A DNA stretch of 60,260 nucleotides from the NCBI GenBank assembly GCA_028687045.1, contig JAQUAW010000002.1, forward strand, positions 1 to 60,260, in the 5' to 3' direction. Positions 12,613 to 16,303 of this stretch are shown in pieces. Origin of the DNA: Patescibacteria group bacterium. Its GTDB lineage: Bacteria; Patescibacteriota; Patescibacteriia; Magasanikbacterales; UBA922. Position numbers and translations under genes: made by a program. Positions within the stretch are counted from its first letter, which is position 1. Every line of letters starts with the position of its first letter. Under the pieces are notes generated by a model that did not search any database, was not told the DNA's origin, and saw only the letters and a program-made list of their open reading frames with translations.

Positions 12613-13041
12613 ATGGCTATAGACAACAAACAAAACGTCGATTTTAAAAAGCGGTTTTTTAGCTCGCGCTTGTTTTTGTTTATTATGTTGGGTATTGCTG
12701 TTGTTGTAGCTGTTGGTTATGCTAGAGCTTATTATCAAGATTACAAAATTAAGCAAGAAATAAAAAGTTTACAAGATGAAGTGTCTTCTTTGCAAAAGAA
12801 GAAAATACAAAGTTTGGATTTGTTGAAATATGTTTCTAGTACTGCTTATACAGAAGATCAAGCTAGAATAGAATTGAATATGAAAAAACCTGGTGAAAAT
12901 GTGGTTTTTGTAAATAATTCTGAAAATAGTGACAAACAAGCTGTGGATGTTTATCAAGAAGTGGATAGTGGACAATTTGTTTCAAATCATTTAAAATGGT
13001 TATATTATTTTATTCATAAACCTCTGATCCAAGAGGAATAA
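12613..13041 (+). CDS. septum formation initiator family protein (FtsB/DivIC-like)
   Basis: Single TM, coiled-coil segment (IKSLQDEVSSLQKKK), and ARIELNMKKPGENVV motif. Confidence 0.6.
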   Translation: MAIDNKQNVDFKKRFFSSRLFLFIMLGIAVVVAVGYARAYYQDYKIKQEIKSLQDEVSSLQKKKIQSLDLLKYVSSTAYTEDQARIELNMKKPGENVVFVNNSENSDKQAVDVYQEVDSGQFVSNHLKWLYYFIHKPLIQEE

Positions 13042-13050
13042 TTAAGAATT

Positions 13051-14163
13051 ATGTCAGAAGAACAAAACATGTCTCCAAAAATGGAGGAAAAATCTACAGA
13101 AATGACTCCTAGTCAGGAAGAGTCAAATATTTCAACAATCAAAAAACAAAGTCCACTTATGATGATTTTGGGTGGTTTTGTGGTAGCTTTGATTCTTGGT
13201 TTTGGTATTTTTTATGGTGTAACTTTGTCTCAAGTCAAAAATTTATCTAGAAGTAATTTTACTTTGAAATCTGCTTCATTGTTGAATTTGTCAATTGCTA
13301 GTATCAATGGCAAAAAGGTACTTTATAGTGAATATGTTGATAATATTCAAGCTATGGAAACATTTTATCAGACAGATGATTCTGGTCAGCAAGTACCTAC
13401 TGATGCTGAAAGATCAGATTTTGTTTTGAGTCGTTTACTTGTGAATAATTTGATAGCACAAGTTGCCAAAGATATGGATGTTAGTGTTACCAAAGCTGAT
13501 ATAGACAAAATAGCTGAAGAACAAATTGTTACCGGTTTCCCTAGTAGAGAAGATGCTGAAAAGGAAATTATGAATAGATATGGTTGGACTCTTGAGCATT
13601 TTTTGCAAGAAATAGTTTATTCAACAGAGCTTGAGAAAAAAGTTGCTGCCAAATATGCTGAGCAACATCCTGTTGATACTAATGCTGATGCTTCTGTTGA
13701 AGCACAAGCTATTGAAATTTTACAACAAATAAAAGATGGTGCTGATTTTGCTGAAATGGCTACACAATTTGGTTCAGATGGTACCAAAGATCAGGGTGGT
13801 GATTTAGGTTGGTTTAGTCGTGGTCAAATGGTTGCTGAATTTGAAGATGCTGCTTTCTCTTTAAACAAAGGTGAATTGAACCCTGAATTAGTAAAGACAC
13901 AATTTGGTTATCATATTTTGCAAGTAACTGATAAACGTACTACCAAAGATGATGCTGGTAAAGAAGTTGAAGAAGTACAAGCTCGTCATATCTTATTTCC
14001 ATTTCAAGAAAGTAATGATGATGCTTTCCGTCTATTTATGAATGAACAATTGAAAAATGCAAAAATTGATATAATTGCCAATGTTCATAATCCTTTTGAA
14101 GGTTTATTTGATGAAGAAACTGAACTTCCTGTTACTACAACTACAGATGAAGTTGTTCAATAA
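13051..14163 (+). CDS. peptidylprolyl isomerase, parvulin/PrsA-SurA-like, membrane anchored
   Basis: PpiC motif GGDLGWFSRGQMVAEFEDAAFSL...FGYHILQV; N-terminal TM segment. Confidence 0.85.
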   Translation: MSEEQNMSPKMEEKSTEMTPSQEESNISTIKKQSPLMMILGGFVVALILGFGIFYGVTLSQVKNLSRSNFTLKSASLLNLSIASINGKKVLYSEYVDNIQAMETFYQTDDSGQQVPTDAERSDFVLSRLLVNNLIAQVAKDMDVSVTKADIDKIAEEQIVTGFPSREDAEKEIMNRYGWTLEHFLQEIVYSTELEKKVAAKYAEQHPVDTNADASVEAQAIEILQQIKDGADFAEMATQFGSDGTKDQGGDLGWFSRGQMVAEFEDAAFSLNKGELNPELVKTQFGYHILQVTDKRTTKDDAGKEVEEVQARHILFPFQESNDDAFRLFMNEQLKNAKIDIIANVHNPFEGLFDEETELPVTTTTDEVVQ

Positions 14164-14198
14164 ATAATAATAGTTCCTATCTCAAGTGAGATAGGTAC

Positions 14199-14281
14199 GC
14201 GAATATCGTATAATGGTATTACGTTGATTATAAAGTACTACTTTGCAATCAAAAATGGGAGTTCGAATCTTCCTATTCGCA
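14199..14281 (+). tRNA. tRNA-like gene with canonical acceptor/D/T arms but a 29-nt anticodon arm
   Basis: 7-bp acceptor GCGAATA/TATTCGC with A73; U8, A14, G18G19. T arm is GGGAG-TTCGAAT-CTTCC. The anticodon region is ttgattataaa-GTACTAC-tttgcaatcaa (11-bp helix, 7-nt loop). Confidence 0.55.
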
Positions 14282-14430
14282 CAAAAAACACTGATTATCT
14301 TGATTCTTGAAGATTACATTGATAAATTTTAAGATTATTAGATTTTGATTTTTTCTATGTATAGATAATAGATCAAAATTTTTTCATTAAAAATAATTTC
14401 TACTGTGGTGAAGAATCTTGATATAGAAAT

Positions 14431-14503
14431 GCCATCCTAGCTCAGCTGGTAGAGCAATGGTATCGTAAACCATAGGTCACGAGTTCGATCCTCGTGGGTG
14501 GCT
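14431..14503 (+). tRNA. tRNA-Thr (anticodon CGU)
   Basis: Manual cloverleaf: GCCATCC/GGGTGGC acceptor, GCTC-AGCTGGTA-GAGC D arm, ATGGT-ATCGTAA-ACCAT, ACGAG-TTCGATC-CTCGT. Confidence 0.9.
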
Positions 14504-14561
14504 CTATTTTAAAATAAAAAATTATAGCACGAAAGTTTTTTTTGTGTTATAATATTTACAT

Positions 14562-15242
14562 ATGATTACTTTCAAAAGTGTTACAAAAAAATATACTGCA
14601 GATAGCATGGGTTTGAATGGCATTGATTTACATATAGAATCAGGAGAATTTGTTTCTATTGTTGGTCAGAGTGGAACTGGTAAAACAACCATGATCAAAT
14701 TACTTATTGCTGAAGAAAAAGTTACTTCTGGTATTATTGAAATAGGTGGTTGGGATATTACTAGACTTTCTGATTCTGATATTCCTTTGCTACGTCGTCA
14801 GATAGGTGTTATTTTTCAAGATTTCAAATTATTACCAAAGAAAACTGTAGCTGAAAATGTTTCATTTGCTTTGGAGGTCGCTGGAGAAAAACGCTTACGT
14901 ATCAAGCAAGTAGTACCTAGAGTATTAGATATTGTTGGTCTTAGTCATAAAGTAGATAGATATCCACACCAATTATCTGGAGGAGAACAACAACGTGTTG
15001 CTATGGCACGTTCTTTGGTTCATAGACCAAAAATTTTGTTGGCTGATGAACCTACTGGAAATTTGGATTCTATAAATACTCAAGAAATTATAGATATTTT
15101 GAAAAAAATAAATGAATTTGGTACTACTATTTTGCTTGTTACTCACAATAGGGAAGTGGTAAATCAACTAAAACGTCGCGTAGTAACTCTTCATGACGGT
15201 AAAATTATTTCCGATGAAGATAAAGGTAAATATCGTTTATAA
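14562..15242 (+). CDS. ftsE: cell division ATP-binding protein FtsE
   Basis: Walker A GQSGTGKTT, signature LSGGEQQRV, Walker B ILLADEPTGNLD; followed by ftsX. Confidence 0.9.
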   Translation: MITFKSVTKKYTADSMGLNGIDLHIESGEFVSIVGQSGTGKTTMIKLLIAEEKVTSGIIEIGGWDITRLSDSDIPLLRRQIGVIFQDFKLLPKKTVAENVSFALEVAGEKRLRIKQVVPRVLDIVGLSHKVDRYPHQLSGGEQQRVAMARSLVHRPKILLADEPTGNLDSINTQEIIDILKKINEFGTTILLVTHNREVVNQLKRRVVTLHDGKIISDEDKGKYRL

Positions 15243-15391: not shown

Positions 15392-16303
15392 ATGCTATCT
15401 GGATTTTTTCGTATTATAAAATTTTCTTTTCAAGAAATAGTACGCAACATGAGTTTGTCTATTATGACAGTTCTTATTTTGATTTTGATGTTACTATCTA
15501 TAAATACTTTGATGGTTGTCAAAGTTTTGACAGATGAATCTATTATCGCTGTCAAAGATCAAATTGATGTTAGTATTTATTTCAATCCTGAGGCAACACC
15601 TGATGAGATTCAAGAAATTCGAGGATTTGTTAGTGCTTTTCCTGAAGTGGAAAAAGAAACTTTTTTGACTAGTGATGAAGTATTCAATAATTTCAAAAAA
15701 AATTATGCTGATAATCAAGATGTCCTTTCTTCATTAGATGAACTTGGACAAAATCCACTTGGTCCAACTTTGATAATCAAGACTCGTGATCCAAAAGATT
15801 ATGAAAAAATAATCAAAAATCTTAGTTTACCTGAATATGAAAATATAATTGAAGCTAAGACTTTTGCTGATACTCAGACTGCTATTGATAAAATTCATTC
15901 TATTACTACCAATGTCCAAAAATTTACTTATTTTTTGACAATTCTATTTGCTATTATTGCCTTTATAATCATTTTTAACACGATAAGAGTTGCTATCTAT
16001 ACACAAAGAGCTGAAATAGGTATCAAACGTCTTGTAGGGGCAACTAGCTGGTTTATAAGGGGTCCTTATTTGATAGAGTCTTTTATATTTAGTATTATTA
16101 GTGTAGTTATTACTTATTTCCTAGTAGACTTTTTATTGAAATTTTTAGATCCATATATAAGTGTTGTTTTTAACAAAAATGATCTTTTATCAAATTATCT
16201 ATCACAAAATTGGTTGATGGTGGTGGGGATTGAATTTGGAGTAGTATTTTTGCTTACTATTGTTTCTAGTGGTCTTGCGATGAGGAAGTATTTGAGGACG
16301 TAA
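15392..16303 (+). CDS. ftsX: cell division permease-like protein FtsX
   Basis: Four-TM FtsX topology with a large periplasmic loop, directly downstream of ftsE. Confidence 0.85.
   Translation: MLSGFFRIIKFSFQEIVRNMSLSIMTVLILILMLLSINTLMVVKVLTDESIIAVKDQIDVSIYFNPEATPDEIQEIRGFVSAFPEVEKETFLTSDEVFNNFKKNYADNQDVLSSLDELGQNPLGPTLIIKTRDPKDYEKIIKNLSLPEYENIIEAKTFADTQTAIDKIHSITTNVQKFTYFLTILFAIIAFIIIFNTIRVAIYTQRAEIGIKRLVGATSWFIRGPYLIESFIFSIISVVITYFLVDFLLKFLDPYISVVFNKNDLLSNYLSQNWLMVVGIEFGVVFLLTIVSSGLAMRKYLRT

What the first reader, a model, noticed from the sequence alone, without database searches (positions are those of the whole stretch)
14199..14281. tRNA-like gene with canonical acceptor, D and T arms but an 11-bp anticodon helix
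Most of the 83-nt sequence folds as a textbook tRNA.
- The acceptor is a 7-bp perfect GCGAATA/TATTCGC stem with A73.
- U8, A14 and G18G19 are in place.
- The T arm is GGGAG-TTCGAAT-CTTCC with G53, T54, T55, C56, A58 and C61.

The anticodon arm is the exception. In place of 17 nt it has 29 nt, ttgattataaa-GTACTAC-tttgcaatcaa. This forms a continuous 11-bp helix (one A.C, one U.G) capped by a 7-nt loop. The loop keeps U33 and A37 and would present ACU as the anticodon.

The alternative reading is a 12-nt insert giving loop CUUUGCA (UUG). That reading needs a non-canonical intron site and a pyrimidine at position 37. The window already has normal tRNA-Gln(UUG) and tRNA-Gln(CUG) genes with U1-A72.

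Bacterial tRNA introns are normally group I introns of 200 nt or more, so a 12-nt extension is unusual. The gene sits 150 nt upstream of a normal tRNA-Thr.
Basis: seen in the sequence. Interest (0 to 1): 0.65.

Follow-up and report, generated by a model that had tools for sequence, protein, structure and literature searches.

The report
Retired glycine tRNA kept as tRNA-shaped RNA
In four related uncultivated Magasanikbacteria, the gene for a rarely needed glycine tRNA has lost its anticodon loop to a long hairpin yet has been kept in tRNA shape by selection, so it is a non-decoding tRNA-like RNA, not a working tRNA, an intron-bearing tRNA or plain junk.

Summary
Window 14199-14281(+) scores as a tRNA (Rfam 49.7 bits) with canonical acceptor, D and T arms and a 29-nt anticodon arm.

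- The same slot (PpiC-type PPIase gene, this gene, tRNA-Thr(CGU), ftsE, ftsX) holds an ordinary 72-nt tRNA-Gly(CCC) with U73 in three congeners and in other genera of the family.
- Four species that form one clade on an RpoB+RpoC tree carry the extended form, and none has another tRNA-Gly(CCC).
- Their apical loops differ (ACU, AAU, AUU, a pure A/U run), so there is no conserved anticodon.
- The genome has no splicing endonuclease gene, and its one real tRNA intron is a 476-nt group I ribozyme.

The gene is not decaying neutrally. Orthologues are 81-84% identical while flanking spacers are at random level (56%). 95% of pair cells stay paired, with compensatory changes in three helices. G1-C72, C2-G71, G3-C70, A73 and C74 are invariant.

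Best reading: a tRNA-Gly(CCC) gene retired from decoding and retained as a tRNA-shaped RNA, probably as an RNase P/CCA substrate that punctuates the PPIase-tRNA-Thr transcript. The function is inferred. The scan has noted anticodon-less tRNA-like RNAs before, but only in phages.

The parts
14199..14281 (+). tRNA-like gene (G1 to A73), descended from tRNA-Gly(CCC)
   Evidence: Rfam RF00005 at 49.7 bits. Cloverleaf fold, z -3.36. Orthologues in G001, G002 and G005. The same slot holds tRNA-Gly(CCC) in G003, G004, G006 and in other genera.
14199..14205 (+). Acceptor stem 5' strand, pairing with 14274-14280
   Evidence: 7/7 pairs in all orthologues. The first three pairs (GCG/CGC) are invariant. 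Pair 4-69 switches A-U to G-C.
14208..14222 (+). D arm (GTAT-AATGGTA-TTAC) with A14 and G18G19
   Evidence: Sequence read directly. Conserved in all orthologues.
14224..14252 (+). Extended anticodon arm: an 11-13 bp AU-rich helix in place of the 17-nt anticodon stem-loop
   Evidence: Fold. RNAalifold gives 13 pairs. Compensatory A-U/U-A at alignment columns 29/53, U.G to C-G at 33/49, and covariation at the apical pairs. The loop sequence is not conserved. The arm is unique in the genome.
14257..14273 (+). T arm GGGAG-TTCGAAT-CTTCC
   Evidence: 5/5 pairs in all orthologues. Pair 49-65 appears as G-C, A-U or G.U, and pair 51-63 as G-C, G.U or A-U.
14281..14282 (+). Discriminator A73 and encoded C74
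   Evidence: A73 in all four extended orthologues, against U73 in tRNA-Gly(CCC). C74 is encoded in 40 of the genome's 41 tRNA genes and in every extended orthologue.
14173..14198 (+). Hairpin abutting the 5' end of the tRNA-like gene, 10 nt after the PPIase stop codon
   Evidence: Hairpin CCTATCTCA-AG-TGAGATAGG. A hairpin 0-8 nt upstream of the tRNA or tRNA-like gene is present in nearly every family member checked, with a different sequence each time. It carries a U-tract in several other genera but not in this genus.
13051..14163 (+). Upstream gene: SurA-N/PpiC-type peptidyl-prolyl isomerase
   Evidence: Pfam Rotamase_3 1.8e-27, plus SurA_N_2. Syntenic in all loci.
14282..14430 (+). 149-nt AT-rich spacer to tRNA-Thr
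   Evidence: No plus-strand sigma-70-like site reached the scan threshold here. Between species the spacer is at random-level identity.
14431..14503 (+). tRNA-Thr(CGU), the conserved downstream neighbour
   Evidence: ARAGORN. Rfam 61.4 bits. 92-95% identical among the extended-form species.
14562..15242 (+). ftsE-like ABC ATPase, followed by ftsX (15392-16303)
   Evidence: Pfam ABC_tran, FtsX and FtsX_ECD. Synteny.

Best explanation
The gene is the orthologue of tRNA-Gly(CCC). In the common ancestor of four Magasanikbacteria species its anticodon stem-loop was replaced by a long AU-rich hairpin, and its discriminator changed from U73 to A73. It can no longer read a codon. GGG, a rare codon here, is left to tRNA-Gly(UCC).

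Selection has nevertheless kept everything that makes an RNA look like a tRNA to the end-processing machinery:
- the 7-bp acceptor stem and the T arm;
- the D/T-loop elbow;
- the discriminator and the encoded C74;
- a stably closed fourth arm.

Most likely mechanism (inferred, not shown). The RNA is transcribed by read-through from the PPIase gene. RNase P then cuts at G1, directly after the hairpin that ends the PPIase message. The 3' end is trimmed and CCA is added. In this way the tRNA shape serves as a processing mark that releases a hairpin-capped PPIase mRNA and the downstream tRNA-Thr precursor. This resembles the mascRNA element at the MALAT1 3' end, or mitochondrial tRNA punctuation.

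The confidence of 0.7 is for the core claim: a selected, non-decoding derivative of tRNA-Gly(CCC). The punctuation role on its own I put at about 0.35.
For: Descent and single origin
- The gene order PPIase, this gene, tRNA-Thr(CGU), ftsE, ftsX is conserved. The slot holds a 72-nt tRNA-Gly(CCC) in G003, G004, G006 and in many other genera.
- Outside the anticodon arm, the G005 extended form is 84% identical to G003 tRNA-Gly(CCC).
- G000 has tRNA-Gly(GCC) and tRNA-Gly(UCC) but no CCC. The covariance-model search found no tRNA-Gly(CCC)-like second hit in G001, G002 or G005.
- The extended-form species are one clade on 2475 RpoB+RpoC columns, with support 80/79.

No decoding
- Apical loops differ between species.
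- The arm is 11-14 bp, whereas known natural tRNAs reach 6 bp at most (review PMC7609411).

Selection
- Orthologues are 81-84% identical. Shuffled sequences give 60+/-3%, and the flanking spacers 56%.
- 95.4% of pair cells are paired, against 42-57% when partners are slid. Double changes occur in the acceptor, anticodon-arm and T helices.
- C74 is kept, as in 40 of the genome's 41 tRNA genes.

Dispensability of the decoder
- GGG makes up 5.9% of glycine codons, 3.7 per 1000 codons, in a 32.7% GC genome.

Processing context
- A hairpin abuts the 5' end and lacks a U-tract in this genus.
- The scan found no strong promoter between the PPIase gene and tRNA-Thr.
- RNase P RNA and a CCA-adding-enzyme homologue are present.
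Against:
- Only three deep lineages plus one variant carry the form, so covariation statistics are thin (12 of 500 shuffles reach the observed score).
- Clade support is only 80/79, and a PPIase-only tree placed G005 outside. Monophyly is nevertheless not rejected (p-AU 0.49).
- Promoter scans in 33% GC DNA are unreliable, so co-transcription is not shown.
- A pure RNase P signal would not obviously require an invariant A73 or an invariant GCG/CGC stem top. These could instead point to a synthetase.
- At 34% GC, against 47-66% for the genome's tRNAs, the gene shows relaxed constraint. It evolves 2-3 times faster than tRNA-Thr.
Confidence: 0.7

Rival explanations
1. A dedicated non-ribosomal aminoacyl carrier. 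The RNA is still charged, by the alpha2-type GlyRS or another synthetase that reads only the acceptor end. It hands its amino acid to FemAB-type peptidoglycan bridge transferases, or to another aminoacyl-tRNA-dependent enzyme. Having lost its anticodon, it cannot compete in translation.
For: - The GlyRS acceptor-stem identity pairs G1-C72, C2-G71 and G3-C70 are invariant, while pairs 4, 5 and 7 changed.
- A73 and C74 are fixed in all orthologues.
- The genome has only the dimeric alpha2 GlyRS. From my own knowledge of the Thermus enzyme, this type tolerates both A73 and U73.
- Two tandem FemAB-family genes are present.
- Staphylococcus aureus keeps non-proteinogenic tRNA-Gly species for FemXAB (established knowledge).
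Against: - C35 and C36, major GlyRS identity elements, are gone.
- G3-C70 excludes AlaRS, and the absence of a long variable arm excludes SerRS.
- FemAB genes are present in all seven congeners, including the three that keep normal tRNA-Gly(CCC). There is therefore no association with the extended form.
Confidence: 0.13
2. A slowly decaying tRNA-Gly(CCC) pseudogene with no function of its own.
For: - It has lost its anticodon.
- It is AT-enriched: 34% GC against 47-66% for real tRNAs.
- It evolves faster than the neighbouring tRNA-Thr.
- Congeners keep the normal gene.
- The codon it served is rare.
Against: - The flanking spacers between the same species are at random-level identity, while the gene is 81-84% identical.
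- All four helices stay paired, with compensatory double changes arising after the remodelling.
- A 1.15-Mb streamlined genome would be expected to delete dead DNA.
Confidence: 0.1
3. An intron-containing tRNA. A 12-14-nt intervening sequence is removed at position 31/32 to give a tRNA with loop YUUUGYA and anticodon UUG.
For: - ARAGORN in intron mode makes this call.
- The string UUUGYA next to the basal 5-bp stem is present in all four orthologues.
- A73 and the T-loop sequence TTCGAAT match the genome's own tRNA-Gln genes.
Against: - No tRNA splicing endonuclease gene was found in a 95.6%-complete genome.
- The helix is continuous, with no bulge-helix-bulge motif.
- The insert is far too short for a group I ribozyme. 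The genome's one real tRNA intron is 476 nt and matches Rfam Intron_gpI.
- Position 37 would be a pyrimidine.
- G1-C72 does not fit the U1-A72 of the genome's tRNA-Gln genes.
- Two normal tRNA-Gln genes already exist.
- The UUUGYA conservation is explained by pairing with the conserved 5' strand.
Confidence: 0.04
4. A decoding tRNA with an elongated anticodon arm that presents ACU.
For: In this copy the 7-nt cap GUACUAC has U33 and A37.
Against: - The cap is GUAAUAC, GUAUUAU or a pure A/U run in the orthologues, and its closing bases pair.
- An arm 6-8 bp too long cannot span the distance between the decoding and peptidyl-transferase centres (established ribosome geometry).
- The genome already has tRNA-Ser(GCU) and a tRNA-Ser(ACU).
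Confidence: 0.02

Closest known systems
tRNA-Gly(CCC) of the same bacterial family (the ancestral gene)
   Same: - Same genomic slot between the PPIase gene and tRNA-Thr(CGU).
- Up to 84% identity outside the anticodon arm.
- Same GCG/CGC top of the acceptor stem.
- Same small D loop carrying G18G19.
   Different: - The anticodon stem-loop is replaced by an 11-14-bp hairpin, so there is no C35 or C36.
- A73 instead of U73.
- T loop TTCGAAT instead of TTCGATT.
- D loop one base shorter.
- 34% GC.
mascRNA at the MALAT1 3' end, and mitochondrial tRNA punctuation (tRNA shapes used as RNase P/Z processing marks)
   Same: - A tRNA-like cloverleaf with a non-conserved anticodon loop.
- It lies directly 3' of a transcript whose end carries a protective structure.
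- The features kept are those that RNase P and the CCA-adding enzyme read.
   Different: - Those systems are eukaryotic or organellar.
- Cleavage is not shown here.
- This RNA descends from a bona fide bacterial tRNA gene and keeps a full D arm and elbow.
Non-proteinogenic tRNA-Gly isoacceptors of Staphylococcus aureus (donors for FemXAB)
   Same: - A glycine-tRNA lineage diverted from translation.
- FemAB-family genes are present in the genome.
   Different: - The staphylococcal species keep a normal anticodon arm and are charged by GlyRS.
- Here the anticodon is absent, and charging is untested.
[quoted passage not shown]
   Same: An anticodon stem longer than 5 bp on an otherwise L-shaped tRNA.
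   Different: - Those stems have 6 bp and a conserved 7-nt anticodon loop, and the tRNAs decode.
- This arm has 11-14 bp and no conserved loop.
Anticodon-less tRNA-like RNAs of phages noted earlier in this scan (e1-4090694, e1-3599581, e1-2912700, e1-3689090)
   Same: A tRNA scaffold conserved as an RNA, with the anticodon loop replaced by a closed helix or an insert.
   Different: - Those are phage genes, mostly Leu-type class II scaffolds, in phage modules.
- This one is chromosomal, in a core cell-division neighbourhood.
- Its ancestor gene and time of origin can be named.

Membership tests
Canonical tRNA (Rfam RF00005) | Cloverleaf with 7-bp acceptor stem, D arm and T arm, and tertiary-interaction bases (U8, A14, G18G19, T54-A58, C56) | tested here: met
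   Rfam 49.7 bits against a gathering score of 29. Confirmed by folds.
Canonical tRNA (Rfam RF00005) | 5-bp anticodon stem with a 7-nt loop (U33, purine 37) | tested here: not met
   The arm is 29-31 nt, and Rfam shows an 18-nt insert. RNAalifold gives a 13-bp helix with a 3-nt cap.
Canonical tRNA (Rfam RF00005) | Anticodon conserved among orthologues | tested here: not met
   Apical triplets are ACU, AAU, AUU and an A/U run.
Canonical tRNA (Rfam RF00005) | Expressed, CCA-tailed and aminoacylated | not testable with these tools
tRNA-Gly (bacterial identity set) | G1-C72, C2-G71, G3-C70 | tested here: met
   Invariant in all extended orthologues.
tRNA-Gly (bacterial identity set) | C35, C36 and U73 | tested here: not met
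   There is no CC in a loop. The discriminator is A73 in all four species, whereas syntenic tRNA-Gly(CCC) genes have U73.
Intron-containing tRNA (archaeal/eukaryal type) | Bulge-helix-bulge motif at the splice sites, and a splicing endonuclease in the genome | tested here: not met
   The helix is continuous, without 3-nt bulges. PF01974 was not found in the 95.6%-complete genome, while the control genomes scored.
Intron-containing tRNA (bacterial group I type) | A self-splicing ribozyme core of roughly 200 nt or more in the anticodon loop | tested here: not met
   The insert is 12-14 nt. The genome's genuine case (C15:31412-31962) has a 476-nt insert that matches Intron_gpI at 67 bits.
tRNA pseudogene | Neutral decay: divergence like flanking DNA, and stem-breaking substitutions | tested here: not met
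   81-84% identity against 56% for the spacers, which is random level. 95% of pair cells are paired, with compensatory changes.
tRNA-like processing element (mascRNA-type punctuation) | tRNA-like fold directly 3' of a structured transcript end | tested here: met
   The hairpin at 14173-14198 ends at position -1 of the tRNA-like gene. The arrangement is conserved across the family.
tRNA-like processing element (mascRNA-type punctuation) | Cleavage by RNase P at the 5' end, and co-transcription with the upstream gene | not testable with these tools
   RNase P RNA is present, but there are no transcript data.
Non-proteinogenic tRNA for Fem transferases | Fem-family transferase present and associated with the special tRNA | tested here: inconclusive
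   FemAB genes are present, but in all seven congeners whichever tRNA form they carry.

The most novel reading that the evidence does not exclude
The RNA is still aminoacylated through its invariant acceptor end (GCG/CGC, A73, CCA). It would then act as a dedicated, anticodon-less amino-acid carrier for non-ribosomal chemistry, such as FemAB-type peptidoglycan bridge synthesis. That would make it the first case of a tRNA lineage fully retired from the ribosome yet kept as a charged cofactor.
Probability: 0.12. Interest if true: 0.85.

Novelty: new variant of a known kind. Interest (0 to 1): 0.5.

Why it matters
- **A dated case of tRNA exaptation.** The ancestor (tRNA-Gly(CCC)), the event (loss of the anticodon loop, U73 to A73) and the outcome (continued purifying selection on the tRNA shape) can all be read from sister genomes. 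This happens in a bacterial chromosome of only 1.15 Mb.
- **An opening to non-decoding roles.** It offers a way to ask what non-decoding jobs a tRNA scaffold can hold in bacteria.
- **A warning for annotation.** Default tRNA finders miss the gene, and intron modes mislabel it as tRNA-Gln, tRNA-Tyr or tRNA-Lys.
- **A correction to the tRNA inventory.** These genomes decode GGG without a CCC isoacceptor.

Tried and rejected
- **Repeat or mobile-element origin of the arm.** The 29-nt arm has no other copy in the genome.
- **More members elsewhere.**
  - The covariance-model search of 107 family genomes found only the four known copies above 100 bits. All other long hits were class II tRNA-Leu or tRNA-Ser.
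  - Pattern scans of GTDB and JGI metagenomes returned only the same three sequence types plus one T-stem variant.
- **FemAB association.** FemAB genes are present in all congeners, so the result is uninformative.
- **Literature.** Four searches for extended or long anticodon stems, tRNA-like RNAs in CPR/Patescibacteria and anticodon-less tRNAs found no description of this RNA. The Lak-phage 'enigmatic introns' (PMC6784885) are a different thing.
- **PPIase-only tree.** It suggested the extended forms might be paraphyletic. An AU test and the larger RpoB+RpoC tree did not bear this out.

Full report
**1. The observation**

Window 14199-14281(+) reads GCGAATA-TC-GTAT-AATGGTA-TTAC-G-[TTGATTATAAAGTACTACTTTGCAATCAA]-AAAT-GGGAG-TTCGAAT-CTTCC-TATTCGC-A.
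- Rfam's tRNA model matches it end to end at 49.7 bits (gathering score 29), with an 18-nt insertion in the anticodon loop.
- The minimum-free-energy fold is a cloverleaf with a long fourth arm, z = -3.36 against shuffles.
- ARAGORN in default mode does not report it. With introns allowed it calls tRNA-Gln(UUG) with a 12-nt intron at 31/32.

**2. What the gene descends from**

The genome is a 1.15-Mb, 32.7% GC assembly. Its congeners are deposited as Candidatus Magasanikbacteria MAGs.

BLAST and a covariance model built from the first hits found the same extended gene in three congeners, G001, G002 and G005. In every case it lies between a SurA-N/PpiC-type PPIase gene and tRNA-Thr(CGU), followed by ftsE and ftsX.

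In the other three congeners (G003, G004, G006), and in many other genera of the family, exactly that slot holds an ordinary 72-nt tRNA-Gly(CCC) with U73.
- Outside the anticodon arm, the G005 extended gene is 84% identical to the G003 tRNA-Gly(CCC). That is more than to any tRNA of the window's own genome.
- G000 has tRNA-Gly(GCC) and tRNA-Gly(UCC) but no CCC.
- The model search found no second Gly-like hit in G001, G002 or G005.

The gene is therefore the orthologue of tRNA-Gly(CCC).

**3. One origin**

A PPIase-only tree left the question open, and an AU test did not reject monophyly (p 0.49). A tree on 2475 RpoB+RpoC columns places the four extended-form species in one clade (support 80/79), sister to G003+G004 (99/94).

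The extended forms also share several derived states:
- A73;
- A7-U66;
- a D loop one base shorter;
- C25;
- T loop TTCGAAT;
- the AU-rich arm.

**4. It does not decode**

The cap of the arm is GUACUAC here. It is GUAAUAC in G002, GUAUUAU in G001 and a pure A/U run in G005.

RNAalifold closes the arm to 13 pairs with a 3-nt cap, and the two apical pairs covary. Known natural tRNAs have anticodon stems of 6 bp at most (review PMC7609411).

The intron reading fails on several counts.
- The helix is continuous, without a bulge-helix-bulge motif.
- No splicing endonuclease gene was found in a 95.6%-complete genome.
- 12-14 nt cannot hold a ribozyme.
- The product would have a pyrimidine at position 37 and G1-C72, unlike the genome's own tRNA-Gln genes.
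- The genome's one genuine tRNA intron is a 476-nt group I ribozyme.

**5. It is under selection**

Between species whose PPIase proteins are only 59-67% identical, the extended genes are 81-84% identical. The spacers on either side sit at the level of shuffled sequence: 56% observed against 59+/-2%.

Of 108 pair cells, 95.4% form standard pairs, against 42-57% when partners are slid. Double, pair-preserving changes occur in three helices:
- the acceptor stem (4-69, A-U/G-C);
- the long arm (A-U/U-A);
- the T stem (49-65, G-C/A-U).

The only mismatch is the A.C in this copy. An extra metagenome variant changes the T stem and still pairs.

G1-C72, C2-G71, G3-C70, A73 and C74 are invariant. C74 is encoded in 40 of the genome's 41 tRNA genes.

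Constraint is nonetheless relaxed. The gene has 34% GC against 47-66% for the genome's tRNAs, and it changes two to three times faster than tRNA-Thr.

**6. Why the decoder could be lost**

GGG makes up 5.9% of glycine codons, 3.7 per 1000 codons. tRNA-Gly(UCC) can read it by wobble (established knowledge).

**7. How it most likely works (inferred)**

What selection has kept is what RNase P, 3' trimming and the CCA-adding enzyme recognise: the acceptor/T minihelix, the D/T elbow and the discriminator plus C74. What has drifted is what the ribosome and the anticodon-binding domains read.

The gene starts directly after a strong hairpin that follows the PPIase stop codon.
- Nearly every family member checked has such a hairpin 0-8 nt upstream, each with a different sequence.
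- In several other genera the hairpin carries a U-tract, and so looks like an intrinsic terminator. In this genus it does not.
- No sigma-70-like site above threshold lies between the PPIase gene and tRNA-Thr. A good one lies upstream of the PPIase gene at 12969-12997.
- RNase P RNA and a CCA-adding-enzyme homologue are present.

I therefore favour a processing-mark role. Read-through transcripts would be cut at G1, leaving a hairpin-capped PPIase mRNA and freeing the tRNA-Thr precursor. None of these steps is shown.

**8. Main alternative**

The invariant GCG/CGC top and A73 would also suit a synthetase.
- The only GlyRS is the alpha2 type.
- Two FemAB-family genes are present.

An anticodon-less, still-charged carrier is therefore not excluded. 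Against it, C35 and C36 are missing, and FemAB genes occur in all congeners whichever tRNA form they carry.

**9. Distribution and prior knowledge**

The form was found in four GTDB species and a handful of metagenome contigs, and nowhere else. The searches covered 107 family genomes and two pattern scans.

Literature searches found no description of it. Earlier notes of this scan describe anticodon-less tRNA-like RNAs in phages. Those notes are leads, not support. This case differs in being chromosomal and in having an identifiable ancestor gene.

**10. Verdict**

This is a real and conserved feature of modest scope. It is a new variant of the tRNA-like RNA theme, and its function is unresolved.

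Noticed in passing
G000 contig C15:31412-31962 (locus L160), outside the window: A tRNA gene of the same genome is interrupted in its anticodon loop by a 476-nt insert that matches Rfam Intron_gpI at 67 bits. A related genome (G066, L025:115-418) has a tRNA-Phe with a 231-nt insert.
   Followed up: partly
G000 contig C7:32716-33147 (locus L161), outside the window: Three tandem tRNA-Ser genes are called by ARAGORN as UGA, GCU and ACU. An A34 serine anticodon is unusual in bacteria. Rfam confirms all three as tRNAs.
   Followed up: partly
G000 contig C25:6026-6265, outside the window: A tandem pair of tRNA-Tyr(GUA) genes. The second is 93 nt, with an enlarged variable arm and a broken 3' acceptor end, and it is the only tRNA call in the genome without C74. 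It is probably a decaying duplicate.
   Followed up: no
whole genome G000: Of 41 tRNA genes, 9 encode the full CCA and 31 encode only C74 after the discriminator. A single templated C thus seems to be a genome-wide rule.
   Followed up: partly
L003 (G001), L014 (G003) and L015 (G004), within 60 nt downstream of tRNA-Thr(CGU): Partial repeats of the tRNA-Thr 3' half lie just downstream of the gene (for example ...GAGTTTGACTCTCGTGAGTGGCTC in G001). They look like scars or att sites of elements integrated at tRNA-Thr. The tRNA-Thr of G003 and G006 is also much more divergent (79-84% identity).
   Followed up: no
L003:1585-1715 (G001) and L005 (G005), the spacer between the tRNA-like gene and tRNA-Thr: The spacers begin and end with 13-14-nt inverted repeats (AAAAATTACAATT ... 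AATTGTAATTTTT), which fold the whole spacer into one long hairpin (G001 z = -3.7). G000 has a weaker equivalent (TTATCTTGATTCTT ... GAAGAATCTTGATA). This could be a processing stem or a MITE-like insertion.
   Followed up: partly
window 14540-14564: TGTTATAAT, an extended -10 element, lies about 10 nt before the ftsE ATG at 14562 and is conserved in G005 and G006. ftsE may therefore be transcribed with a very short leader or none.
   Followed up: no
metagenome loci L048, L068, L089, L092 (about 7175-7254 in L048) and L035:428-516: Other tRNA-like genes share the same D arm but have enlarged anticodon regions: a 13-nt loop containing GTACGTAC inside a 15-tRNA, phage-like array, and a separate gene with a 16-nt insert on an 8-bp stem. 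They are unrelated to the present locus.
   Followed up: no
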